From: Pecten maximus
Taxonomy: Eukaryota
Direction: 5' to 3'
DNA: 64,000 nt
Assembly: GCF_902652985.1 (NCBI RefSeq)
Contig: NC_047017.1
Location: forward strand, 5,518,001 to 5,582,000
Shown: positions 2,995 through 61,700 of the stretch, piece after piece
How positions within the stretch are numbered: position 1 is the stretch's first letter
Layout: each line of letters starts with the position of its first letter
Translations under genes and position numbers: made by a program
The notes under the pieces: generated by a model
Seen by the model: only the letters and a program-made list of their open reading frames with translations
Told to the model about the DNA's origin: nothing
Databases searched by the model: none

Positions 2995-5313
2995 ATGAAT
3001 CCTGTTCCAACGTGGGACCAACTCATAACAGGTATATTGTTGCTAACGATGTTAAAAATATATCGTGTTTGATTTTAGATGAAACAGAGAACGTTAATTA
3101 ACGACGATGACATGTACATACCACAATGAGTCAAATGAACAAGTCAGCTGTCTGTTGTTCAGTTTCAACATGCACATCTCCTGAATTATTGCCACCCTGC
3201 GAATTATAAAATGGACAAATTTCTAATATAATTGATTTCAACAAACCAAACAGCAGGCTGAATGTTATAATGAAAATGTTTACCCCTTTTTATGGCAAGT
3301 ATACAATGTATCTAAGCTTGGAAAGAAACATTTATTTAAAGTTTTTAACACATTGCTCTCAACCACATTTTGATGAAAAAATCAGATTGTTTGATGAAGG
3401 TTGTATACACTTTAAATTCAGTCATATCTCTTTCATTCTCTGACTTTTCCAGCTCAACTGTTAAGATACAATTTGGTGAGTGGTGTTCTTCTCTTGACCA
3501 GGCATGGTCAGCCTGCATACACTTATGGAGAACTGGACATCAACCCAACTGTGGTAAATTTATATATATTTGCAGTTACTTTTGCTTGATGTCACCCTGC
3601 TAAATTTTGTTTAATTAGTACTGACTTGGGGTTAAATTTAGCTTATTTGGTATTTTGTCAGGTACATGTAGAAAGAGGGCCAGTGCAGGGTTCAATCCCA
3701 ATTTTAGGGGACCATGATGAAAAAAAATGTTGCACTGAGTAGTGATAAAGCATGCATGATATTTCACAGCTTAGGAGCCCTTATACAATACATTATGTCG
3801 ATGTTCATGTTCAAACTTTATGTATTTTTTTTATATATATATATAACCTGTCCAACGTGACCCCTTTATGACACTCTGTCTTATCTATAATCATTGTTTA
3901 GATTTTGTCATCAATCATCAAGGTTCAAGATCAAAAGTCACGCTTAACCACTTTAAAAATAAAACCTCTGGACCAATTAATGCTATATTGATGAGGGAAT
4001 CAGGGTATATCTATGTGATCATGAGCACACTTTTCTTTTATTGTTGATATTTTTTCTATGAAATTAAATTAATTCAAGCTTTGTGTTGTAGGAGGAATCA
4101 AAACATTTCATCCAGGCATTCAGACTGAGCCAGTCACAACAGACACCTCAGAATGACACATTCATTGTTCAGTTTAAAAATGGACAGAAAGTAAACTTTA
4201 CAGTTTACAAAAGATCTTTCTGCAGGTAATACATGTACTACTACTACTACTACCACCACCACCACCACTAAATTATATTTATATTTATTAATTGTCATTC
4301 CTTATAAGAGTCATTATCATTAACACACAAAAAACACACACACAAAAAAAAAAGATTTAAACTTACATATAGTTTTATGTTAAATTCAAAATGTATCAAT
4401 ATTTTTTCCTGAACATTTAATAGCGATGAAAGTATTTCCATTATCCAGTAACTTCACGTAAAAAAAAAGCCCTTTAAGATTAATTTCAGAAAAAGGCAAT
4501 ACTTATGCTGATTTGACATTCAGTTTGAAATGGTGTTGTGTCTTCTTTATGCATTGTTATAATTAGAATCAATATTAAGATCTGTACATGTTTGTTCATC
4601 TTGTTTGTCTTGTGTCTGTCAATTATTAGTTTGTTCATCTTGTTTGTCTTGTGTCTGTCAATCATCAATCACATTAGTTTTGTGTCTCTCTGCACATTAT
4701 CTTTGTCTTATGTCTATCACCTGTCATGTGTCTGTCTACTTGTCATCTTGGTCTTGTGTCTGTCTGTCCATCATCTTTGTCTTATGTCTGTCTGCCCATC
4801 ATCTTCGTCTTGTGTCTGTTTGTCCATCATCTTTATCTTGTGTCTGCCTGCCATCATCTTGTGTCTGTCTTCTCATCATATTTTTCTTGCGTCTGTCTGT
4901 CCATCACCTTTGTTTTGTGTCTGTCTATTCATCACATTTGTCTTGTGTCTTTCTGTCCATCATCTTTGTCTTGTGTCTTTCTGTCCATCATATTTGTCTT
5001 ATGTCTATCTGTCCATCACCTTTGTTTTGTGACTACTCATCATCTTTGTCTTGTGTCTGTCTTTCCATCATCTTTGTCTTGTATCTGTCTTCTCATTATG
5101 TGATGGAAAAATATCTGTTCATGTGTATTTATGTCATGTGTTACCCAGTCTTTGTCTATTTTCAGTATCTACGCCACATCTAACGGGAACAGGGATGGTC
5201 TGATCATCTGCAATCTACCCCACGGTGTTATGTTGTGTACCTACCATCTCCCCGTCCAGTCAGGGCAGGTTATCACCCTGGTGGAACGTTTCTGTGACGT
5301 ACTCAGGGCGTGA
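2995..5313 (+). CDS. Divergent profilin-fold protein, 139 aa. Exons 2995-3031, 3453-3553, 4092-4225, 5166-5313
   Basis: Four GT-AG exons total 420 nt in phase: MNPVPTWDQLITAQLLRYNLVSGVLLLTRHGQPAYTYGELDINPTVEESKHFIQAF...VNFTVYKRSFCSIYATSNGNRDGLIICNLPHGVMLCTYHLPVQSGQVITLVERFCDVLRA*. Length, the N-terminal W-helix, the G-hydrophobic strands and the C-terminal 'VE..CD.L' helix follow the profilin pattern. AATAAA occurs at 5827 and 5902. Confidence 0.75.
4585..5100. repeat. Degenerate ~28-29 bp T/C-rich minisatellite (TTGTCTTGTGTCTGTCTGTCCATCATCT) in intron 3 of the profilin-like gene
   Basis: Repeat units are directly visible. It accounts for the Cys/Leu-rich pseudo-ORFs at 4538, 4605 and 4726. 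Confidence 0.9.
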
Positions 5314-39163: not shown

Positions 39164-42100
39164 ATGAAGAAGAGGTCTGTCAGCGGCAATGAGACGTCGT
39201 CAAGACAGTTACACCGCCGTCAAACTAGGCCCAAAGCCAATTCTATTCAGACACACAACGAAGACGAAAAGGAAACGAGTCAACTGCAAAGCAAACGTCG
39301 AAAAGTTAGACTAGGCCTAACCAATTTATCACCAATTCATGATCAATCACCTGAATCATGTTCGAAAAGTAAGAAGTTGTTAAAATGTGTTTGAAAACTA
39401 ACTAAAGCCTAGGCCTAATTGCCTTTGGCATAATTTGTTTCACATATGCACAATTGTTGAACATTTACATTTTGAACATGCATGCATGCTGTACATAGAG
39501 GTTTAGTTTACGTGTAAAGGAACAGGGGTCGAATTCTCTCAGCATGTTTAAAGATATTTTTATTTATCAAATACCTCTCACTTTTACTTTTAGTTAAGGG
39601 GAGATAACTCTGATAAATAAAACATTAATTTAGGATAAGTTATAACTAGCTATATACATGTATATATATATAGCTACAGCTATGGTGTAGTCTGTAGAGC
39701 CATTCGTTCTTGAAGAGCTGCCCTGGGAACCTCAAAACTAAAATAAAACCCAACGAAATAAACAACAAACAAAATAAATGACAAACAACAAGGGAGAAAC
39801 TCATTATAAAAAGATAATATCAGGAGCATAACCGTTACGCCAATTATCTGAAGATCTGATCATGACTATGCTCAACTGCTGTGACCTGTCTGCTACAGTC
39901 ATATGTATGTGAGGTCTGTCAAAATTTTTGTTTAAAGCTCTAAACTTTGTTTGTACAAACATAAAGGTTGTCATTGACAGTGATAATGGACGGATATTAT
40001 ATGTATATACATCTATGCATTGACATGATGTATATATACATTTAGCAGGATGACAACTTTGTATATGAAAGTCAGAATTTTATTATATTTGATTGATAAC
40101 CATATCCCTTTTACTTATTAGAAACAACTTTTGTCCGAAAAGTTTTTGTTTTTTTTGCTTCATGATTTCCAAGCTTCCGAAATCACCCTTTTTTGGAAGG
40201 TATACATATAAAAAGCAAGAAATTCATTACAATATGAAAACTGTTAAAGCAAAAGTTGGTTGACACAGTAAAGAATGTATATTTGTATATATGTATTCTC
40301 AAAGTATTGACACCAGTCGTATCTTATGATAAAAGCTGGACATAGTCATGATCTGTTTTATTTTTGTTTAATGAATGTTTATAAGAACTTTCAATTTACC
40401 AGTAGTTGGATATATATGCTCACAGAAATGAATGGTTTGACAATTATATTTAATATGAAATTGAGTATGTATGGACATGATTAAAAGTCCCAGTAATGTG
40501 TCATTTAATTTCTATACTAATAGTTTATATCAATAACTCATATCATCATTTTAAAGACATTTTTCCTTCTATGTCGCAATTGATAATCAATGAGTTCACA
40601 TACCTTTAAAAGATCTGGCATGATATTTGCCCCCAAAACTGGTGCATATATATTAGTTGATATATTCCTCATGATATTTTCCTTTCACATTTTACAGGAC
40701 AGGATATTTCAAAGAGGGATTCAAAATTTGAAACACCGAAATCCAACAAGAGCGGTTACTTACATGATAGCACTCCATTTAAGGATGATATTCTGTTGGC
40801 GTCCCAAGGCTACGATGCGCAGTGCGATGTGAGATGGGATTGTACATCACCTGATGCTCTCCGATACATCAGGAAGAGTAAGAATGATTTGTATAAAAGT
40901 CTGTGCAAAAAGAGGGGATGAAAACATTCTCCTTTATGATTACTATATAGTATAAGTAAGATTATGATGTTGAGGGTTGTATAAAAAGACATACAAGTTG
41001 TTATTACGGAAGAATGATTTGTATGAAAGTCTGTGCCAAAAAAAAAAAAAAAACGAGGTGGAAACAATCGCCTTTATGATAACATTATTATATAATAGTA
41101 TAAGTAAGATTATGAAGTTGAGGGTTGTACAAAAAGACATACAAGTTTTGATTTCCTTTAAAAAAAAATTAAGAATTAGATATAGTAGAGCCAAAATTAA
41201 GTTAACTCTATCATATACAGCTCATTTGTCCTTTTGAGTGCTTAAAATGTTGATGATAGAAGCTAAAGACAACCAAAAAACTGGCAATAACGGTAAGTAA
41301 AGAAATGTCAAAATCTGCATGTTGAAGCCATTATTGTAGAAATGAGGGAATATATGTTTCATATATTGTCCCAACAAATAACAAAAAATTACCAAGACTG
41401 AGTGGTGTGTTTGAATCAAGGACAAAATGATGCATTGGATCATTTTAAAGTCATTGTAATCTTAATTGTCTTAGAAATCCAATTTGTCTAAAGTCCAGTC
41501 ATTTTAACTGGGAATGAATCAAATGTGCTAGCTTAAATGGGTCTCTAATCTACATGTATGTAATTGTCACAGTATATAAAATCAAACCTGTATACTACCA
41601 GTATTGGCCTATTTGTGATATTGTTAATAAATTCATATCTTACAGATAGACGACGTCATCATTCCAGTGATGTTGCAGACATTGTCCAACTTCTTATTCC
41701 AAAAGAGGTAAAGTCACTTTATCATTATCTAAAGCTTCGATTCAATGGTACCATTTGAGTTTATACAGTGAAACATTGCGTCATCATCAAACTATCATTT
41801 CTGGATAAGTGATGTTGTCCTTCTTAGTGTTTTTCCTGCTTTTTTATTTTGGGCTGAATCAGACTCATCTCCTGATCATGTATGCCTATTTTCCTAGTGA
41901 AGTTATCAAAATTTCCAAAACTTTACTTGTGGTGATGACAGGAAATCCAGTGATTTTACACTAAGATTTGTTGTACATTCAATTCCCAATTTCCACCAGG
42001 TGGCATTATCCCAGAATGGTCTGGAAAAACACTGCCTTAGGAAACGCTCACATTATACTGACTCAATGTCACATTTTGTCTGATAATTTAATCCTTCTTA

Positions 42101-45100
42101 AATTATATGTATAAAGCTTTTACTTTAAACATCCTATATAATGGATATTCAAAATTGAAATAGATATTTGGATTTATATACAGGTATATGTGATAGTAAA
42201 AGATTGTTTTGGCATATCAAATTATTCAACTCATTCGATGAATTCTTTATGACATAGCCAATCATGTATGATCCTTTATTTATGCTTGAAGGATTCCCCT
42301 TATATCGTAACTTGTTACTTCTAGTCACAGGAGGAGGATGCAGGCTCATCAACGAACACCCCACCTCTACTTGGATTGTGGATGAATTTGTCAAACCAGT
42401 CCACACATGCCAGCAAGGATGATAAATCTGGACACAGTACACACCCAGTGCACTCCAGCAAGCTCGTACGGTGAGGGAAAGCCATACAGTTTGACATAAA
42501 AAGAACATCTGCCATTATACTGTTGATTTTAAAACCAGAAAAACAGAAAAAACTTTATCCGGTAGTTCTTTGCAGGCCTGGACATCAAAGGTCAGGGTCA
42601 CATACTTTAAATAGAAAATCAGTTAATGCACAATTTCTTGTTCTTTTGGGGTGATTGCATTCGATGAATCGTTTGGGATAAACTTTAAATTTAGGCTCAA
42701 AGGTCAGGTGTTGTCAGTGACTATAGATAAAAAAAATCAGTTATGCATATTTTGTTCTGTTGAGCTGATTGTTCTTGACTTTATCCAGTGATTTCCTTAA
42801 GAAAGTGCTTAATTGGAATAAATCTATTAGGATTTAATGTCAAATGTCAAGGTCATACAAATAAAAATAAGTTTATCCCATTTAGTTTTAATCATTGCTA
42901 CACTTGCTTGCTTGGAATAACCATTTAGGCCCAGAGTTTAAAGGTCAAGGTCACTGTTTGCACAGTATCTTTAGCTCTGTTGGGCTGATTTCACTCAGAC
43001 TTTGTCCGTTCCTTTCTCAAAGGAAGTGCTTGCTTGAGATATCTTTAAAGGCTTGAATGTCAAAGGTCAAGGTGACTGTACATTGCTATTAATAGAATAT
43101 TAGTTTAAATTTATGCATTATAGATTGAGTTCTATAAAGCAAATTTCACTCAGAATTTATTAAGTAGTTATATAAAGAAAGTACTAGCTTTGGATAGCTT
43201 TTCAGTCTGAAAGGTCAAAGGTGGTCAAGGTCACTGTTGTTATAAATAGAAAATCAGTTGTATCTTGTGTTCTATAGTGCGATTTGCCATGTAACACTCA
43301 GGTTAAGCTTGGGTTTAGAGGCAGACACCTTGTGTGGTCTGTTGACATTTAATTACTCTAGTTGTTTTTGAAATCACCTTATTAAATGGTGTATTAAACC
43401 TTTCGTCGCTGTCAGTGTGGAATACTCCAAAAATGTCAGAATATTGGTTTAATACATTTTCAGAGGAAAATTAACAGAAATATGACTCATTTATACATAG
43501 TAAAATTTCCATAATGATTGAATTTGAGGAAACATATTTGAAGGAAACATATGATCATCAATGAGGGAAATAGCATGCTCTGACATCACTTCCTTCAGAT
43601 ACATGTACATTATTATACCATCCCATGGTTTCTATTCCTGAAAGTGAAATTAATCAAGATTAGCAAATTTTCTATATATTTATTTGTAGTTTGTAAACCT
43701 GCTCTGAATTTTTAAATTTTGTGTTCCAGGTTCAGGAAAAAGGACAAATTACGTAGTCGTGATGCAAAGATGCCGAGAGAATTGTTGGAAAAACTGAAGT
43801 TGGCTGTAGAAAAATGTGAGAATTATCAATGTTAGGATGGTAAAAAAATCTTTGGTAGCTATATATTGATAAACTACAGAATATGTTTGTACCCATTTAT
43901 AATAACCTCCTTACCTTTAACCTTTCCTGATACATCCGTGGCAACTTCACCTAAAACTTGGTAGACTTTATAATTGTGATATTTTGTCTTGTTTCCTAAA
44001 AAGAATTTTTGATTGGACAGTTTTTGCAAAAGTTGTTGCCCTTTGTTTATTTCAGTATTAATTTTGATTTTTGTCTTGAGATTTCCTTTTTTGGACCAAT
44101 TACTAATAAAGCATAAGAATCATGATATAAAGTTTCGTTTCTCAGAAAAAAATCTGATTCAATTATTTTTCAAAATGTACTGTTGCCAATTTCTGTTGTT
44201 GAAGACTTGAGTACTTGTTTTTATTAAACTGTCAGAAAATTATATATTGACTTTGTAGTGAAAAGTGAGATTTATAGCTTGCCAGATAGCCTCTCTTAAG
44301 AAAATACAAATGCCCAGTTGTTTACATACCTGAGTAAATTGTGGATAATATTTTGCCATTTAGGTGATGGGCAATCCACAACATCGACAGAAGAGGTCGC
44401 TGAAAGTGATAAGTACGATACTTTTATACATTTCTCAATTTGTTTTACATGTTCTGTATTAATAAAATACAATGATAATTTCTGATCAATTGTGTTAATT
44501 TTGTGGTGACTGTTTAAAGCCGGACACAGGGTTATCTTACCCAAGAATGATATTTATTTTTGACTATTGCTAAAGTAATGATAGCTTAATTTTTGGTTCT
44601 ATAAGAAATTACCTTACATACAAAATAATTGTCAACCAATTAACCAATTTTGAATTATAATGTATTCATTAAAATGCTGGTGTAGGTATCCTCATGTTGA
44701 AAAATAATCTTGAAAAAATTTGGTTATGTGAAAGTAATTTTAATATGACATGGATTCCTTTTCTAGGGATACAAAAAAGGATGAAAGTCCAGAAGGTTTT
44801 GACAAATCCAAGGATTTATTTGCAAGTGCAGAAGCGGCCAGATCTGTGTTAATAGAGCGAATGCTTCACCTACTTTGAATTGGAGTGATGATGAAATATT
44901 TGAGAATGAAGATCTCATGAAGGAAACACAGGATCTAGACTTAGAGCCAAAAGACAGAAGGGGCAATAAACGAAAATCTCACGGGATCAAAGAATCAAAA
45001 CCTAAAATGAGTAAAGTTTGCTTAGATACTCATCAAGAACTGCAAAGTAACTTGTCTGATAGCAAGAAACAAACAAAGGGTGTAATATCATATAAAATGT

Positions 45101-48100
45101 TTCAAGGGGGGAAGGAGAGATCCCCATTTAGGAAAGTGAAGAGTTTCAATGACATTGATCATGTGCAAAGCAAACCGACAAATGATCTCCGACAAAGTAA
45201 GGGTCGTAAATGTTTATCACTTAGGAACGTTGACACCGTGACAAAAACTGTTACAACAGCATCTACCTCTAAGTCTGTAGGTAGGATGACTGTCAATCAG
45301 GGTAGTAGTGTTACTTCAAACCAAGCTACTTTCACTTCAAACCAAGTCACTCAAAGTACACATGCCTTAGCAATGGACAAAAAACAGCATTCAAATCGTG
45401 GAAATCCTCCAGCAGAAATCTGCACACCTGTAGATCCAAGTGCTTCAAAAATGCTTAGAAACGTGGCGTCTTCTAGTACTACACATAACTATAATGTTAC
45501 TAGTGGTCGTAGCTCTCTTTCCACAACGAATAGAGCTTCTACTCATCATTCAGGACTTGTTGGTACATGCTCTGAAAGGCCAAACAAAGTCTGTGATAAA
45601 GGTCCCTCTGTTCCTGTACCAGCAACCAATAACAGTCTGAAAAATCAAGTCATCATATCTAGTAGGACATTTGTTGTTGCCAAAACTCAAACTACAGGTT
45701 CTGGTATTGTGAGTACTGGAGTACAGAATCCAAATCCTGTAGTTAGTAAAAGTCAATTCAATAAAATCAACTCTGGATTACAATGTTCAACAGTCCAAAG
45801 TGCTTCTACTACAACCTCAAACTCTAGACGACGCTCCAGTGGAATCTTCGACACAAGTTTGTCTGATGATCTTCTATGCCAGCTAGCTGAACCAGACGAG
45901 CTTTTGGACAGTCAGGCTAGTCAGAACACTAACAGTATTGTTAAGTCTCAAAGTTTAGGTGTAACATTACACGAAGGAAAACCAGTGCAAGGAGTTGGTA
46001 TGACAAAGTGTGTTAGTGTATCTTGTGATAGACCCAAGTCTAGTGTATTGTTTCCTGCGAGTTCAAAAGGACCTGTGAAAACGACAGGATTGAAACAAGT
46101 GCCAATCATTTCTAATTTCAATAAAACTGGATGTGCCAATTATAATATCCCTCTAACTACACAGTCTAGTGTTAGTGGCAATAATAGAATTGGTGCCGAC
46201 TCCATGATAACTCTTAGTCAAGTGTCATCTTCTCAGAGGAGCAAATTCAAATTCAAATCCAAATCTGTGAACAGTGGGATGGGTGTACAAATACCAGTGT
46301 CCACTGTTACTACAAAAATGTCTGCAAATCTGTCCACGTCTGTTAGCGCCCCAGAGATCAGGAAACTCACTACTGTCGCTACCAAGTCAACAGGTAAAAT
46401 TTAAACATGTGTATAGCTAGGTATAACACCAAATTAAATTAACTATAAATACCAGCACCCAAATGTGTATTTTAATGACCACAGTAAATTTCAGTAAAAC
46501 CTGTGAAGCTACCAAATGGTGAAAGAAAATTTCTTAATAGACAGGTAGTTTTTATAGCTTGTTTGATAGACTTTGTAGTTAATATGATTTTGTCCCAAGG
46601 AATTTTTTTAATACATTGTCATCAGATGGTTGGCTATTCAAATCACCTCTTTCCATATAATAGTTATTTATATATGTAAATGTAGCCTTTTCCAACCTCA
46701 CCCCAATCTCCTTAATTTGATGCCTTGTTGCAATTGTCCATGTTCAATTTGCATTCTCTAACTTGCATGCAAAGGCACCATCTTCGATTTTTACTGTTAA
46801 GTAAATTATCACTATTTTTTACAGTGAGCTAGATCTTTCTCCAATTTTAATTCCTATAAGTATATATATAAGAGGTTTTACTGGATGAATGTTTTTCAGG
46901 TTCTTCCCTTACAGACAACAGTGAGGACCTGTTTAACTCGGATGATGACGAGCTGTCTGAACAGCAGATCTTGGCCGTGCTGGACACCGTGGAATGTAAG
47001 ATCAGTACCATATAACATATATGTATTAACACAAACTTGTCGTGATACTCATGGTCATAAATCTTTTTTAAAAAATGTGTTAAAAATGAGAATAGACACT
47101 AAGTAGTGGGCAATTATTTCAAATCCAAAATATTTTTCATTGAAATTTTCAATTTTTTTTCTGACTGCTTGTCATATATACGATAATATACAGGAAGCAA
47201 ACATGAATTTTTATGTACATAATTAACGGTTTCTTGTGTATTATTAACTTGACTTTACCAAAAAATGCTGAAGTTCCTTAAGCTTGTTGAAGTTGTTAAA
47301 TCCAATATCCTGCACATATGTAACACATTCCAAGATAGTACAGTACTAAGATAATAAACATTCAATTTCCTCTTTTCAGTGGAGGCTTCGCAGATGCCAA
47401 TAGCACCACAGAGTCAGCAGTGTCCCAAGACAAGTCCAAGTGCTTTTCCTAGCAAGTGCTCCATGAACGAAATCGAGCAGAAAAAGCATGCAGCAAAAGC
47501 AAAACTTCTGAAGAAGAAGGCCGAAGCTGTTTCTCCAGAGACTCTATCACAGGATACAAGTCCGATAAAATTTAGTCCTACGAAATATACACTGGAGGAG
47601 ATTGAAAGGAAAAAACAGGCCGCTTTAGAAAAAAGACGAGCCAAAAGTAAAGAGACTTTACCTGAAAGTTCAAATGTGTTCAATCAATATAAGCAAGATT
47701 TTATAGTTAAGAAACAGCAAAATGTCAGCACAAAAAATCCTAGTGCAATACAGAGTTGCTCTTCTGGAAGTCCGGACAAGCTTCATCAGGATGATATACA
47801 AAGAAAACGGCTGGCTGCACTTGAAAAACTTAAACTTAGGGAAGACAATGTTAAGAAATGTGCTTCCAGTAGCAGTTCTAGTGATAGAAACAGCTTTAGT
47901 CCAGGAAAATGCTCACAAGAGGAAATTGAGCAAAAAAAACTGGCGGCATTGGAAAGAAAGAAACATGCATCAGGGGATGTTATGAAGGCGCGTCATCATT
48001 CCGACTCTAGTCCCGGATTCTCCAGCAGTCAAAGTGCTGAGAGTAGTCCTTTTAAATGTACCCCGGAAGAAATTGAGAAAAAGAAATTAGCAGCATTAGC

Positions 48101-48155
48101 AAAATTAAAAATAAGGAAGAACTTGAGCAGTCAGATGTCTAGTAAAGGGAATTAG
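39164..48155 (+). CDS. ETAA1: ETAA1-like ATR activator. Exons 39164-39368, 40698-40877, 41646-41707, 42325-42470, 43730-43830, 44364-44412, 44767-46393 (frame break near 44803-44875), 46900-46995, 47380-48155
   Basis: AAD-like ETPK...DVRWDCTSP...SSDVADIVQLLIP...LLGLW compares with recalled human ETPK...DIFWDQNSP...SDEISHIVNRIAP...MLDMW. RBM1-like SDDLLCQ compares with DDDLLYQ. C-terminal KCTPEEIEKKKLAAL compares with KCSPEEIQRKRQEAL. The order of motifs is conserved. Confidence 0.85.
40880..41150 (+). repeat. Two-copy ~135-bp tandem duplication beginning at the ETAA1 exon-2 donor
   Basis: AAGAATGATTTGTAT(A/G)AAAGTCTGTGC...TAGTATAAGTAAGATTATGA.GTTGAGGGTTGTA.AAAAAGACATACAAGTT occurs twice. Confidence 0.85.
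42560..43330. repeat. Degenerate ~120-130-bp array carrying AAAGGTCAAGGTCA motifs
   Basis: The motif recurs near 42587, 42699, 42841, 42940, 43061 and 43210 with similar flanks. Related remnants lie at 49360-49840 and 3920. Confidence 0.65.
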
Positions 48156-52432: not shown

Positions 52433-55400
52433 CTAGAAGTATTTGACATTCTTTTTGGTCTTTCGCTGGCTCTGCAAAGAAATAGAATGAAACGCACTGC
52501 ATTAATCAAACATTGCTATTTAATAAACTGATATCAGCAACGTATGACTTAACTGTGATGACAACAGTATTTGCATTGAACAAAATTGCTCAAAATATGG
52601 TCCTTTGACAGAAATGTTTAGCTTATTTTCCCCCAAATTCCCATCATACACCACAATTTTTCCCCCTCAATTTTACCCATATATGGAAATGTCCCATATT
52701 TACCAGGAAAACACTGTACTGGTATCACAGAGAAAAAAAATGTTACAGCTTGTACATCTACATACCCTGTGATCATTATAATACATACCCGCCTCAGACC
52801 AATGGGCTGCTTATTGAAAGACTCCTTTCTTTTTTGCCTCATCTTTCTATCTCTTTCTTTCTTTTGTCTCTTGTAAACTAAAGACTCTTCATAATTCACA
52901 GGTTTTGCTCGTCTGCATTTTCTCTTTGTATTCAGCTTATCTGGAGTGTTCTGAAATGTGACATTACAGTAAATTGTCTTTACTAGCCCACCTAATTATT
53001 TTCTTTCCTTGTTTTTGACAAAATATCAAGAAGACTTTTTATTATAAAATCTCATTTTGAGACTGCAAAAAAAAAAAAAAATTAGTATTTTGAATGTTTT
53101 AATTTGATCAGAGAATATCTCTGTTCATAATATTCTCAATAAAAAAATTAAAAGAATAAGAATGAAGAGCATCCAGCTATAAAACAGATCAAGTTATTAT
53201 ATCATGTATGTTCTTTTAAAATTCCAATACGTTTTAATTTTGTGTAACTAACTTGCTGTGAGACTTGTGCTATGGTGGTGATGGTATTGGTTGTAGAATA
53301 GTCTTCTGCAATGTCCAAAAGGTAATCAGCCACATTGAGATCACTCAGCGTCACATCTGTATATCTGTGTAGCTCTTTATCTACCGACTCCACAGGCTTA
53401 GTGTCATCATCTGTAACCACACAAGTTATTCATCATAACCCAACACGACTGATAGACATTAAAATTGTATAGACCGTATTCAACCCATTAAATGCACCTA
53501 CCACACCCTTTTTAAGAAAAGAAGATATACCAGCTGATATAAGCTAATCCAGGGATTTTCCTACAATTTTTCAACTGGGTCCAGGGTCCATTGAATCGGG
53601 AATTTCTACGCAACACAATGTGACATTGGTAAAAACAAAAAATAGTGTAATTCTTAGAAATTTTAGTTTTTCTTTGATGAATATTGCCTTTATATTATTT
53701 TTGATTTCATTTTGTTAACTATAGCTGTTTTTTATTTTTCAAAGGAACCTTAATATAGGTCTTTGTATATAAAACTTACTTAATCATTCAAAAGTGACTT
53801 CAAATTGTGAATATTTCCGTGGCTATTTGGGAATTTTCACAAGATTTTTTTTAGGGGAATGGGTCCTTTTAACGGACCCTGTTTCTATTGTAGAAAAATA
53901 CCTGTAATCAAAACATATAAAGTTCCTTACCTCACTGATCTGCCAATACGATCTTCAGTCTTTATCCAAAGACTCTGGATTGTTTTCACAAAAGTATGTA
54001 AATAAAAAAAAAAGCTATTTTTCCACCCAGATTTCAAGCAAAAACTTTTCCCTGTATGATCATTTGAAGATTTTAACACATTTGAACCCTATCACCTTGG
54101 AAGTATACCAAGATCTTTCATTTAAACCAACTTGTAGCTCTTCATCCCATCCCAGCATACTAATGACCAAATAGCATATGACCCTAAACCTTTTAGTTAT
54201 TGAGAAGAAGTTCCTTAAAAGGACAGGTTGATGCCATACAAACAACAGCAGGATTGCCAAATAATGGATGTACCACAGCACAAGCTCACTTGCTCTTCAT
54301 ACATCATTCAAATTAGTTTTTATGATTAGGAGATCAGAAAATCTTACCAATCATTTGAAGAATATCAAGTGGAAAGATATCTTGATTTCCAGATTTCACC
54401 TCAAATACATTTAATGGATCATTCAACAGAGGAGTCAGGGGTATATCAAAAGTTTGTACAGATGGCCTGCAAAATAAGAAAATATCAATTGTAGTTTATA
54501 AGACAATACATGCAAATTAATAATTATGCACCTAAATGTATGTACATATTATGTATCTATAGTGTTAGGGATTGCTTTATACTGATGTTTAATCATCACA
54601 GTTTTTCTAATGATAAGTCCAATGGTATATAAAGTATATATCAACATATAACTATTTTCAAAACTTATTTCAATGTTGTTCAGTCGTGTAAAATAAACAT
54701 AAATATGAAATTATTAATTTAGTTTCTTTTTTAAATTTTAGGCTCCTCTAAAATTATTGACATTTACTTGAAAACTATCACTTTGTTGGAGGTTACAGTA
54801 CAATCTAGAATTATATCTATGATTGTAGATTATCTACATAGTAGTTTATAACATTAATGAAGAAAAAAGTTGACAAAATGAAAATTTCAATTTGAAATCT
54901 TCCATAAACATGAAATCTATGTTTTATCAAAGACGTATCTATGTAAATCTGCATACTTACCAATTCACATTCCTATTCAACAGGCTTGGTGTCTGATATG
55001 GCATTTGATGTGATTGGTTGAAGTTGATTTTTGGAGTTGAAGGTTGACTGTAGCTCATGTTAATCAATTTGACGTTCTTTATTCTAGGTGTTTGTAATAA
55101 TGATCTGGTGTATTTACGGAACCCTTGACCATCTGATTCTGATGAATTGAATGTACACATAACAGGATCAAAGCGCTTAATAGCTGGGGATCGATTCGTG
55201 TAAACAGGTGATGAACCGTTTGGTGAAGCTGGCTTTTTGAAAGTCTGACAGAGAGGTGTTCTTGGCATAAATGTAGCAAGCTGCTGAGTATTTTTCTTTG
55301 ATTGAGAATCTAGTCTTCTCATTATTTGAGCACGTTTCTTTTTCATTTCGATTTCGTATATTTCCTGAAAAAAAAACAACAAAAAACATACATATATGCC

Positions 55401-58765: not shown

Positions 58766-61700
58766 ATGAGAGGGGCACATGATTTGGAGCTGAGTTTGGT
58801 CCTAGGACTTGTGACATTTAGTGTTTATTTCACCACTTTGTACCCATCATTACCAGGAGGTGACTCAGGTATGTTACTGTCCTAACCCCTCCCATCCCAT
58901 CCCTCCCAACCCCTCAAACCCCTCCCATGTATAGGTAACCATTCTAAACAGATCTCTACCAGGAGGAGACTCAGGTATGTTACTGAACCCTGGGCTGCAC
59001 CTCCCAACCCCTCCCAACCCCAACCCCCATCTCAACACCCCTCCCCCTCCCAACCCCTCTCAACCTCTCCCTGGTATCGTGGTAACCATTCTAAACAGAT
59101 CTCTACCAGGAGGAGACTCAGGTATGTTACTGAACCCTGGGCTGCACCTCCCGACCCCTCCCGAGGCCCAACCCCTGACTCCCAACCCCCATCTCAACAC
59201 CCACCCCCCTCCCAACCCCTCTCAACCTCTCCCTGGTATCGTGGTAACCTTTCTGAACAGATCTCTACCAGGAGGAGACTCAGTATGTTACTGAACCCTG
59301 GGCTGCACCTCCCAACCCTTCCCGAACCCCAACCTCCAACTTCCAACCCCCATCTCAACACCCATCCCCCTCCCAACCTCTCCCTGGTATCGTGGTAACC
59401 TTTCTGAACAGATCTCTACCAGGAGGTGAGACTTGGGTATGTTACTGAACCCTGGGCTTCACCTGCCAACCCCTCCCGAGCCCCAACCCCCAACTCCCAA
59501 CCCCTCCCAACACCCATCCCCCTCCCAACCCCTCCAAACCCCTCCCAACCTCTCCCTGGTATCGTGGTAACCTTTCTGAACAGATCTCTACCAGGAGGAG
59601 ATTCAGGTATGTTACTGAACCCTGGGCTGCACCTCCCAACCCCTCCCGAGCCCCAACCCCCAACTCCCAACCCCTCCCAACACCCATCCCCCTCCCAACC
59701 CCTCCCAACCTCTCCCAATCTCTCCCTGGTATCGTGGTAACCTTTCTGAACAGATCTCTACCAGGAGGAGATTCAGGTATGTTACTGAACTCTGGGCTGC
59801 ACCTCCCAACCCTTCCTGAGCCCCAACCCCCTACTCCCAACCCCCATCTCAACACCCATCCCCCTCCCAACCTCTCCCAACCTCTCCCTGGTATCGTGGT
59901 AACCTTTCAGAACAGATCTCTACCAGGAGGTGAGACTTGGGTATGTTACTGAACCCTGGGCTGCACCTCCCAACCCCTCCCGAGCCCCAACCCCTCAAAC
60001 CTCTCCCATGTATTGGTAACCATTCTGAACAGATCTCTATCAGAAGGAGACTCAGTATGTTACTGACATCCACTCTCAACCGAGGCCAATCCCCTGTATT
60101 TTAGATACTATATATATAAAACTCACTGCTACAGTGCTGCTCATTAAAAGTCTAACATTCCAAAAACTGATCATTTTCAACAGTAACTCATTTTGGGAAG
60201 TTTTCTGAGAAATAACACAATTGCATAATTTAAGAAATCGAAAGAAAGAAATTCATATTCAGGATGGCTTTTGAATAAAATGAGGACTTGATGGCAGTGA
60301 ATTCTTAAGTTCTGGATAATAATGCTGGAATTTAAAACTGCTATTCATCATGTACAATAGATTCCTTTAAAAATCTGTAAAATTAATTATTTATGTTACA
60401 TAACATGTATTATTAAGTTTTAGGAAAGAAATATTTCGAAATGTAATTGACAGTAAAACAAGTTTATTGTTATTGATTATCAGGAGAACTTGCTGCTGCA
60501 GCACAGGAACTTGGGGTAAGAAATGCGCTCACAATCTATTTTTTTTTATTCAATGCAGTACTATGGCAAGCCATTATAGAAAAAAAGAGGCATTTATAAA
60601 TATCAATATTTAATAAATCATTTATTGATTTTGGTAATGAATCATGTATCAATATAGGCACTATTTAATTTCTACTACCCTGAACGTGTGTTATTCTGTA
60701 TTGATGTCAGTAAAGCCAATTGTTTGATTATATTTTGAGAATATATAATTAGTACCAGCTGATTCAGGTGTCAATTTCATAAATCAACAATCGATATTGT
60801 GTCCTTGAAAATTTTATAAAATATTATTTTTTGAATGTTGAATAAATTTTCCTCGTATGAAGTGTGCTACAGTCTTAGTCTTAGCTGAAATCTTGCCTGT
60901 CGATATCATGTCTACCAGTATATGTTTTATGTACATTCTGTTTGATATTTTGGTCTGAACAGGTCGCCCACCCTCCTGGCTACCCTGTGTTTACAATGCT
61001 GGCCTGGTTGGCTATACGACTAGTACCGGGTGGAAGTGTGGCGTGGCGAGTCAATCTACAGACGTCCATGTTTGGAGGGGTAGCCATAGTGTTTCTAGCA
61101 CTCACTGTTCTCAGGTACTAGCTGTAGTTCTAAATGTTCCTTCTGACTCTCATTCACCTAGAAGGAAAACAATTTCAGGGCTTTTTCTCACTGGTTTGGG
61201 ATGGAGCCTTTTTGTCTCATTTCGGGAAGAAAATTAGTGAATTGGGAAAGGTTTTCAGGAGTAAACTGCACATTTTGGGAATTTGGCTTTAAAATGAAAT
61301 ATTTCCAATTGGGAATGGGGCCCATTAACAGCCTCAAAAAGCCCTCAGAAAAAGCCCTGAATCTTACGGCATTTTGGTTGGCAATAGGTGGGATTGGGGC
61401 ATAACTTACTGACTAATCCCTTTGTCATTTTTGTATGTCAATAAAATATGTTTAAACTAAACAAAGAAAACTAAACAGGAAGTTAGGTATACGATCCATT
61501 GTTGGTCCGTAACAGAATTTGATGTTTATCAAGAAAGCTATCACTGTGGAGTATGGCATTGATAAAGAAATACATGTCATGGTCTTCAGGGATTCAAGAA
61601 TTTAAAAGCTATGTATGATATATCATATCCAAAATGAAAATTTAGAGCCCTGGAATAACTTAAAACAACAACATCAGTTTTGATGAGGTGAAATAGTTTT

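What the first reader, a model, noticed from the sequence alone, without database searches (positions are those of the whole stretch)
47380..48155. ETAA1 tail has five RPA32-binding-type motifs, four preceded by a full CDK site
Seen: KCSMNEIEQKKHAAKAKL, KYTLEEIERKKQAALEKR, KLHQDDIQRKRLAALEKL, KCSQEEIEQKKLAALERK and KCTPEEIEKKKLAALAKL. Copies 2-5 begin with SPTK, SPDK, SPGK and SPFK. Established: human ETAA1 has one C-terminal RPA32C-binding motif of the SMARCAL1/XPA/TIPIN/UNG2 type, and S-P-x-K is the full CDK consensus. Inference: this is a multivalent RPA reader that could span several RPA molecules, sensing ssDNA length or promoting clustering, with cell-cycle phosphorylation gating each module. 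The spacers have diverged while the motifs and SPxK sites persist, which suggests selection.
Basis: partly seen in the sequence, partly recalled or inferred. Interest (0 to 1): 0.72.

Follow-up and report, generated by a model that had tools for sequence, protein, structure and literature searches.

The report
Scallop ETAA1 with five RPA-binding helices
This scallop gene, likely the DNA-damage signalling protein ETAA1, ends in five copies of a short helix that the human protein has once; the copies likely grip several RPA molecules on single-stranded DNA and are likely loosened by cell-cycle phosphorylation, and such repeats occur in the scallops, mussel and oysters checked but not in the other molluscs checked.

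Summary
Observation confirmed. The last exon (47380-48155) of a nine-exon Pecten maximus gene encodes five helix copies, four preceded by S-P-x-K. RNA contigs join it to the upstream exons; an apparent frameshift is an assembly error. The gene is very likely ETAA1: its N-terminal profile ranks human ETAA1 first in the PDB, and a tail profile ranks TIPIN's RPA32-binding helix first, but E-values are weak (0.01-0.03). Across three scallops 80% of helix columns and 12 of 12 S/P/K columns are identical, against 44% of spacer columns. New here: 7 of 7 pteriomorph bivalves have 3-7 copies, whereas 11 of 12 other spiralians have one scored copy; a weevil has six. The upstream site is S/T-Q (ATR-type) in 8 of 11 single copies and S/T-P-x-K/R (CDK-type) in 24 of 33 pteriomorph copies. 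Multivalent RPA reading (BTR complex) and CDK weakening of an RPA32-binding helix (UNG2) are both known separately. RPA binding, phosphorylation and length sensing are inferred. Verdict: new variant of a known kind.

The parts
39164..39368 (+). Coding exon 1 (start codon at 39164)
   Evidence: P0004 maps here exactly; GT donor; orthologous N-termini in two other scallops. Joint not tested with reads.
40698..40877 (+). Exon 2: core of the likely ATR-activation domain (ETPK ... W-D-C-T-S-P; Trp at 40835-40837)
   Evidence: Profile A4 aligns collinearly with human ETAA1, top PDB hits E=0.024 and 0.027; human W107 and S111-P from PMC6891097. Joint to exon 3 not tested with reads.
41646..41707 (+). 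Exon 3: S-D-V-A-D-I-V stretch of the activation domain
   Evidence: Joint to exon 4 in 3 of 3 RNA-type runs; aligns with human ETAA1
42325..42470 (+). Exon 4: P-L-L-G-L-W stretch
   Evidence: Joints in 3 of 3 RNA-type runs; aligns with human ETAA1
43730..43815 (+). Exon 5
   Evidence: Joints in 3 of 3 RNA-type runs
44364..44412 (+). Exon 6
   Evidence: Joints in 3 of 3 RNA-type runs
44767..46393 (+). Exon 7, long Ser/Thr-rich exon; the assembly lacks one base behind 44848, which splits the database model into P0004 and P0001
   Evidence: 4 of 4 runs carry the extra base; with it the exons sum to 3228 nt = 1075 aa
45847..45906 (+). Acidic-hydrophobic motif (F-D-T-S-L-S-D-D-L-L-C-Q-L), candidate RPA70N-binding motif (RBM1-like)
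   Evidence: 14 invariant columns in 5 sequences; resembles the human W600/D606/D607/L609/L610 pattern in PMC10479964; no PDB hit, so a candidate only
46900..46995 (+). Exon 8: second conserved acidic-hydrophobic motif
   Evidence: Joints; conserved in scallops and seen in Mytilus, Lottia and Lineus
47380..48155 (+). Exon 9, last coding exon with the five-helix array and stop codon
   Evidence: model with five separate helices and disordered linkers
47445..47510 (+). Copy 1 (F-P-S-K, no CDK site; Lys at +8)
   Evidence: same deviations in 3 of 3 scallops
47559..47570 (+). Extra S-P-I-K site before copy 2
   Evidence: S-P-I-K in Argopecten, S-Q-T-K in Mizuhopecten
47574..47639 (+). Copy 2 with S-P-T-K; most like the single copy of other bivalves
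   Evidence: score 57 against 30-48 for the other four
47769..47834 (+). Copy 3 with S-P-D-K
47898..47963 (+). Copy 4 with S-P-G-K
48045..48110 (+). Copy 5 with S-P-F-K and T-P at the helix cap

Best explanation
The exon encodes five short helices on flexible linkers at the end of what is likely the scallop ETAA1; most of the helices likely each bind the RPA32 winged-helix domain of a separate RPA molecule, and CDK phosphorylation of the S-P-x-K site before a helix would likely weaken that grip. Shown: the array, its splicing to the upstream exons, its conservation, and its spread across taxa. Predicted: five separate helices with no shared fold. Inferred: (1) one RPA heterotrimer has one RPA32C, so several helices mean several RPAs; (2) weak single contacts add up, so ETAA1 would stay longer on long RPA-coated ssDNA and activate ATR there; (3) the phospho-serine sits 9 residues before the invariant Ile, within one residue of UNG2 S64, whose CDK phosphorylation lowers RPA32 binding by repulsion from an acidic patch that scallop RPA32 largely keeps; progressive phosphorylation would lower the effective valency and release ETAA1 in late S/G2. 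The ancestral single module likely carried S/T-Q, an ATR/ATM-type site, that became S-P before or during the expansion.
For: Tail profile A5 ranks TIPIN's helix first among 177,635 PDB sequences (E=0.011) and also finds the SMARCAL1 peptide of the RPA32C complex 4MQV (E=1.2). The tail and 7 tail fragments of relatives match the C-terminal end of Pfam ETAA1, 1 of them over the cut-off. N-terminal profile ranks human ETAA1 first and second. Identical columns in three scallops: helices 72 of 90, S/P/K 12 of 12, x 1 of 4, spacers 66 of 151. Each Pecten copy is closest to the same-position copy in both other scallops. Model: five helices, linkers mostly under pLDDT 60, pTM 0.23. All five copies keep a basic residue at +10, the position of UNG2 R84. 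Scallop RPA32 has D-E-D at human D260-D262. UNG2 T60/S64 phosphorylation lowers RPA binding (PMC8053108; PMC2147998). The BTR complex uses three motifs for three RPAs (PMC7838300). Copy counts and S-Q/S-P split.
Against: Homology scores to ETAA1 are weak: 0 of 3 full-length scallop models match Pfam ETAA1, 8 of 34 relatives match it at all and 1 passes the cut-off, and a genome search with the family did not list this locus. A profile of the five Pecten copies alone ranks stathmin-4 first and lists no RPA partner. All five copies have Lys at +3 where TIPIN and SMARCAL1 have Asn and UNG2 N77 is needed for binding. Copy 1 lacks S-P and has Lys at +8. Human RPA32 E223 of the acidic patch is Gln in scallop. 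Copies do not map one-to-one between scallop, mussel and oyster, so no fixed valency is kept. The weevil array has 0 of 6 S-P-x-K/R sites, oysters 1 of 3 to 3 of 4. The S-Q to S-P change and the expansion may be a single event in bivalves, so their link is not statistically testable. Human ETAA1 oligomerises (PMC7994790), so multivalency can be had without repeats. Lineus has a second motif-like stretch right after its scored copy.
Confidence: 0.58

Rival explanations
1. Redundant array: the copies bind RPA32C one or two at a time and only raise local concentration; number drifts by duplication and loss, with no length sensing.
For: Copy number varies from 3 to 7 among 7 pteriomorphs, with no one-to-one match between families; two Mytilus models differ by a 267-residue stretch with three copies. 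Copy 1 is deviant.
Against: All five copies keep their own identity in three scallops, 80% identical columns against 44% in spacers; spare copies would be expected to decay.
Confidence: 0.2
2. The helices bind RPA, but the S-P-x-K sites do something other than weaken binding: phosphodegron, docking for another reader, control of nuclear import by the Lys-rich helices, or a gain in binding.
For: UNG2 T60/S64 also form a phosphodegron, and S23 phosphorylation raises RPA association (PMC2147998 abstract). CDK sites in the human activation domain switch ETAA1 on, not off (PMC6891097).
Against: The site keeps a fixed distance from each helix, was copied with it (same Ser codon type in 4 of 4), and matches the UNG2 S64 position to within one residue.
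Confidence: 0.15
3. The helices are stathmin-like tubulin-binding repeats under CDK control, serving a mitotic role.
For: Stathmin-4 is the top PDB hit of the five-copy profile, E=0.028. A mitotic role of human ETAA1 is reported (PMC6446857, search listing only).
Against: The deeper profile loses stathmin and finds TIPIN and SMARCAL1. The helices are 18-27 residues and separate, whereas stathmin uses one long helix (recalled). The motif is at the place of ETAA1's RPA32 motif.
Confidence: 0.03
4. The gene is not ETAA1 but another disordered RPA partner with a convergent helix.
For: Weak E-values; no PDB match for the RBM1-like motif; Arg in place of human F106.
Against: Four N-terminal motifs align in order with human ETAA1; the C-terminal match falls at the end of the Pfam model; size 1075 aa and layout fit; one relative is named ETAA1 by UniRef; the only other family match in the genome is chance-level (E=1.3), has a stop, and has no ETAA1-like exons within 10 kb either side.
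Confidence: 0.04

Closest known systems
Human/Xenopus ETAA1 (ATR activator; RBM1 binds RPA70N, RBM2 binds RPA32C)
   Same: N-terminal W-D-x-x-S-P activation core, long low-complexity middle, acidic RBM1-like motif, C-terminal basic helix.
   Different: Five C-terminal helices instead of one; an S-P-x-K site nine residues before the Ile of four of them. The human phosphosite S894-P lies in the motif itself (PMC8053108); in Pecten only copy 5 has a T-P at the helix cap.
RPA32C-binding helices of TIPIN, SMARCAL1, UNG2, XPA
   Same: I-E-x-[KN]-[KR]-x-x-A-L-x-[KR] helix; TIPIN and SMARCAL1 found by the tail profile.
   Different: These are described as single motifs; Asn at +3 in TIPIN, SMARCAL1 and UNG2, Lys here.
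UNG2 T60/S64 phospho-switch
   Same: CDK sites just upstream of an RPA32C-binding helix, at -10 and -14 against -9 here (and -14 for the extra site of copy 2).
   Different: One helix in UNG2 with a two-fold or somewhat larger effect; here the site-plus-helix unit is repeated. Phosphorylation here is not measured.
BTR complex (BLM/RMI1) multivalent RPA reader
   Same: Several motifs for the same RPA domain, proposed to need several RPAs for stable recruitment (PMC7838300).
   Different: BTR uses three acidic motifs for RPA70N on two proteins; here basic helices for RPA32C lie in tandem on one chain.

Membership tests
ETAA1 | N-terminal ATR-activation domain with essential Trp and following S-P CDK site (human F106/W107/S111) | tested here: met
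   W-D-C-T-S-P aligned on human W107/S111, top PDB hits E=0.024 and 0.027; F106 is Arg here; score weak
ETAA1 | Match to Pfam PF15350 above the curated cut-off | tested here: not met
   Tail 14.6 bits, cut-off 27; 0 of 3 long scallop models; 1 of 34 relatives passes. The model appears poorly suited to invertebrates (inference).
ETAA1 | Central acidic RPA70N-binding motif (RBM1) | tested here: inconclusive
   Conserved D-D-L-L motif resembles the human pattern; no PDB hit with a long, diluted profile
ETAA1 | C-terminal RPA32C-type motif (RBM2) | tested here: met
   Matches the end of the Pfam model and TIPIN/SMARCAL1 helices; present five times
ETAA1 | Single best candidate in the genome | tested here: met
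   Tail search finds this locus only, 8 candidates scored; the other family match rejected. Searches score only top candidates.
ETAA1 | Stimulates ATR-ATRIP kinase | not testable with these tools
   Needs a kinase assay
RPA32C-binding helix (TIPIN/SMARCAL1/UNG2/XPA type) | About 20-residue helix in a disordered region | tested here: met
   Five separate helices in the model
RPA32C-binding helix (TIPIN/SMARCAL1/UNG2/XPA type) | Ile at 0, Ala at +7, hydrophobic at +8, basic at +10 | tested here: met
   Copies 2-5 meet all four; copy 1 has Lys at +8
RPA32C-binding helix (TIPIN/SMARCAL1/UNG2/XPA type) | Asn at +3 (UNG2 N77) | tested here: inconclusive
   Lys in 5 of 5 copies and 48 of 49 copies of named relatives; that XPA and human ETAA1 also have Lys here is recalled, not checked
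RPA32C-binding helix (TIPIN/SMARCAL1/UNG2/XPA type) | Measured binding to RPA32C | not testable with these tools
   Needs ITC, NMR or pull-down
CDK substrate sites | [ST]-P-x-[KR] in a disordered region, with S, P, K conserved and x free | tested here: met
   12 of 12 S/P/K columns identical, 1 of 4 x columns; consensus itself is established knowledge
CDK substrate sites | Phosphorylated in cells in a cell-cycle pattern | not testable with these tools
   Needs phosphoproteomics
Stathmin | One long tubulin-binding helix | tested here: not met
   Short separate helices; hit lost with deeper profile

The most novel reading that the evidence does not exclude
ETAA1's RPA32-binding valency is an evolvable dial on the replication checkpoint. 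In pteriomorph bivalves a single helix gated by an ATR-type S/T-Q site was rewired to a CDK site and multiplied, giving a ruler for the length of RPA-coated ssDNA whose threshold is set by how many modules CDK has phosphorylated and, in mussels, by alternative splicing; beetles multiplied the helix independently.
Probability: 0.22. Interest if true: 0.75.

Novelty: new variant of a known kind. Interest (0 to 1): 0.52.

Why it matters
How ATR activators tell normal replication forks from long stretches of RPA-coated ssDNA is open, and so is how ETAA1 leaves RPA. Natural ETAA1 tails with 1, 3, 4, 5, 6 and 7 helices form a ready-made valency series that can be grafted onto human mini-ETAA1 to test whether valency sets the ATR threshold. 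The S/T-Q versus S/T-P split points to a phosphosite beside the RPA32 motif that may also matter in single-copy ETAA1. The result also identifies likely ETAA1 genes in molluscs, nemerteans, an annelid and a beetle, where most database names do not recognise them.

Tried and rejected
Complex prediction of four scallop RPA32C domains with the whole tail: no verdict (scores 0.11 and 0.12, mark 0.34; controls not folded; alignments not used; the tool is untested for peptides and disordered chains). ESM Atlas: no usable hit. PDB search with the tail alone: only chance-level hits. Word-based homologue search with the N-terminal region found only the two other scallops. PDB search for the RBM1-like motif: nothing. 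Second Pfam ETAA1 match on contig C10: rejected as chance. A real frameshift or a split gene: rejected, 4 of 4 runs carry the missing base. A recent tandem duplication or assembly artefact for the array: rejected. Paper search did not require ETAA1 and told nothing. Earlier findings of this scan: nothing in three look-ups. The three 2016 ETAA1 papers tried and the SMARCAL1-RPA32C structure paper are not held, and the supplement of PMC8053108 could not be read. No tree of the copies was built: 22 residues are too few. No fold search was run on the tail model (pTM 0.23).

Full report
What is there. The five peptides lie in one frame of the last coding exon, 47380-48155 (+). The exon's product is identical to the end of a Pecten maximus database protein and 72-73% identical to proteins of Argopecten irradians and Mizuhopecten yessoensis. 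The gene has nine coding exons from 39164. Six joints, from exon 3 to exon 9, are seen in 3 of 3 contig sets guessed to be RNA and not in the DNA run; the first two joints were not tested with reads. All 4 runs carry one base behind 44848 that the assembly lacks. With it the exons sum to 1075 codons plus stop; without it the database splits the protein into an N-terminal part (P0004) and a C-terminal part (P0001).

Is it ETAA1? Likely, on weak but concordant evidence. A profile of 8 N-terminal sequences ranks two human ETAA1 chains first among 177,635 PDB sequences (E=0.024, 0.027) and aligns ETPK, W-D-x-x-S-P, the D/E-V/I-x-x-I-V stretch and the L-x-x-W stretch in order. The Trp and S-P match human W107 and S111, but F106 is Arg (PMC6891097 passages). 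The tail matches the last 60 positions of Pfam ETAA1 at E=0.01, under the cut-off. Of 34 relatives, 8 match the family and 1 passes the cut-off; 0 of 3 long scallop models match. A genome search with the family did not list this locus and gave one chance-level match elsewhere, with a stop and no ETAA1-like exons around it. The tail has no second locus among 8 candidates scored. An acidic D-D-L-L motif in exon 7 resembles RBM1 but found no PDB match.

Is the helix of the RPA32C type? A profile from 17 tails ranks TIPIN first (E=0.011) on its I-E-R-N-K-Q-L-A-L-E-R-R helix and lists the SMARCAL1 peptide of the RPA32C complex (E=1.2) among 6 hits. A profile of the five Pecten copies alone ranks stathmin-4 first (E=0.028) and lists no RPA partner. 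AlphaFold2 gives five separate helices on low-confidence linkers, pTM 0.23. Copies 2-5 have Ile at 0, Ala at +7, Leu at +8 and a basic residue at +10; copy 1 has Lys at +8 and no S-P, in all three scallops. All have Lys at +3, where TIPIN and SMARCAL1 have Asn. The scallop has an ordinary RPA32 with its winged helix.

Selection. In three scallops, identical columns are 72 of 90 in the helices, 12 of 12 for S, P and K, 1 of 4 for x, 66 of 151 in spacers and 205 of 525 upstream. Each Pecten copy is closest to the same-position copy in both other scallops, so the array predates their split and is not homogenised. Copies are 48-68% alike in DNA. Ile-to-Ile spacing is 43, 65, 43 and 49 residues, at most 11-19 nm each when stretched; one RPA covers about 30 nt (PMC10479964 passage), so neighbouring RPAs are within reach (inference).

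Spread. A profile of the three scallop proteins found 52 relatives among 1.84 billion representatives. I looked up 30 of them; with the scallops this gave 20 named taxa, one protein each (the longer Mytilus isoform, one of two Saccostrea models, one of two Biomphalaria species). Counts come from a matrix that omits the S-P-x-K positions, threshold 20 bits, shuffled maximum 5.2; degenerate copies are missed, and 18 of these proteins supplied its seeds. Pteriomorphia (scallops, mussels, oysters): 7 of 7 species have several copies (5, 5, 5, 7, 4, 3, 4). Other bivalves, including the protobranch Solemya, 4 of 4 have one; gastropods 4 of 5 have one, and the Lottia model ends before the tail; two nemerteans and one annelid have one, though Lineus has a second motif-like stretch just behind. 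The weevil Ceutorhynchus has six, and unnamed proteins with a similar tail end have four. The five-copy profile favours multi-copy fragments, so only named, near full-length proteins were tallied. Parsimony suggests expansion in pteriomorphs with later turnover, since copies do not map one-to-one between families, and a separate expansion in beetles; insect single-copy outgroups were not seen. Two Mytilus models differ by 267 residues holding three copies (7 versus 4).

The site before the helix. [ST]-P-x-[KR] precedes 24 of 33 pteriomorph copies and 0 of 11 single copies; [ST]-Q precedes 8 of 11 single copies (7 in exact register) and 1 of 33 pteriomorph copies (shifted). S/T-Q is the ATR/ATM consensus and S/T-P-x-K/R the CDK consensus (established knowledge); Gln to Pro needs one base change. 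The weevil has 0 of 6 full sites. This may be one event in bivalves, so it is a pattern, not a tested correlation.

Mechanism. Most likely several helices bind separate RPA32C domains, raising residence on long RPA-ssDNA and so ATR activation; RPA-ssDNA stimulates ETAA1-dependent ATR activity in vitro (PMC6527274 passages). Taking TIPIN K207 as +4 and its stated equivalence to UNG2 K78 (PMC8053108 passages), UNG2 S64 is at -10 and T60 at -14; the scallop serine is at -9. UNG2 phosphorylation there lowers RPA binding, ascribed to an acidic patch E223/D260/D261/D262; scallop has Q and D-E-D. So phosphorylation likely weakens each module. These steps are inferred.

What is known. Human ETAA1 has one RPA70N and one RPA32C motif (PMC10479964 passages) and oligomerises (PMC7994790 passages). 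BTR reads three RPAs through RPA70N motifs (PMC7838300 passages). RPA32C motifs are treated as single motifs in PMC11387677 (passages). CDK control at UNG2: PMC2147998 (abstract). I found no report of repeated RPA32C motifs in ETAA1 or of molluscan ETAA1: ETAA1 with 'mollus' gave 0 papers, and the listings of searches showed no such title or abstract start. The 2016 discovery papers and their supplementary alignments could not be read and may show invertebrate sequences.

Verdict. Real, conserved and apparently undescribed, but built from known parts: a new variant of a known kind, interest 0.52.

Noticed in passing
window 44848: The assembly lacks one base here (seen in 4 of 4 runs), which splits the database gene model and hides the activation domain from the C-terminal model.
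   Followed up: yes
window 46900-46995 and about 44878-44930: Two further conserved acidic-hydrophobic motifs (exon 8; W-S-D-D-E-I-F-E near the start of exon 7) besides the RBM1-like one; the protein may have several RPA70N-type sites too.
   Followed up: no
window 43754: A 9-base in-frame insertion allele in exon 5 in 3 of 4 runs, and a 6-base deletion allele at 45745 in 1 of 4.
   Followed up: no
P0054 versus P0006 (Mytilus trossulus): Two annotated isoforms differ by 267 residues with three motif copies, so valency may be set by splicing.
   Followed up: partly
P0045, P0038, P0037, P0046, P0052: A weevil protein and four unnamed proteins have 4-6 copies, the last two fused in one helix; the weevil protein is only 488 aa and has a W-D-Y-N-S-P core.
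   Followed up: partly
window 40800-40805: An S-Q conserved in 8 of 8 N-terminal sequences lies 11 residues before the Trp, near human S95-P: an S-Q/S-P difference in the activation domain as well.
   Followed up: no
L004 (G000:C10:40061632-40061787): A chance-level match (E=1.3) to Pfam ETAA1 positions 71-120 with an internal stop; no supporting exons within 10 kb either side.
   Followed up: yes
window 54960-55400 (-): A 147-codon open frame with a basic helix-like stretch and several S/T-P sites; no Pfam match. May be an exon of a neighbouring gene.
   Followed up: partly
window about 58900-59950 and 4500-5200: Degenerate tandem repeats that give long open frames in several phases.
   Followed up: no
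L002 (G000:C4 about 40300550-40304670, -): The scallop RPA32 gene, found from its last exon.
   Followed up: yes
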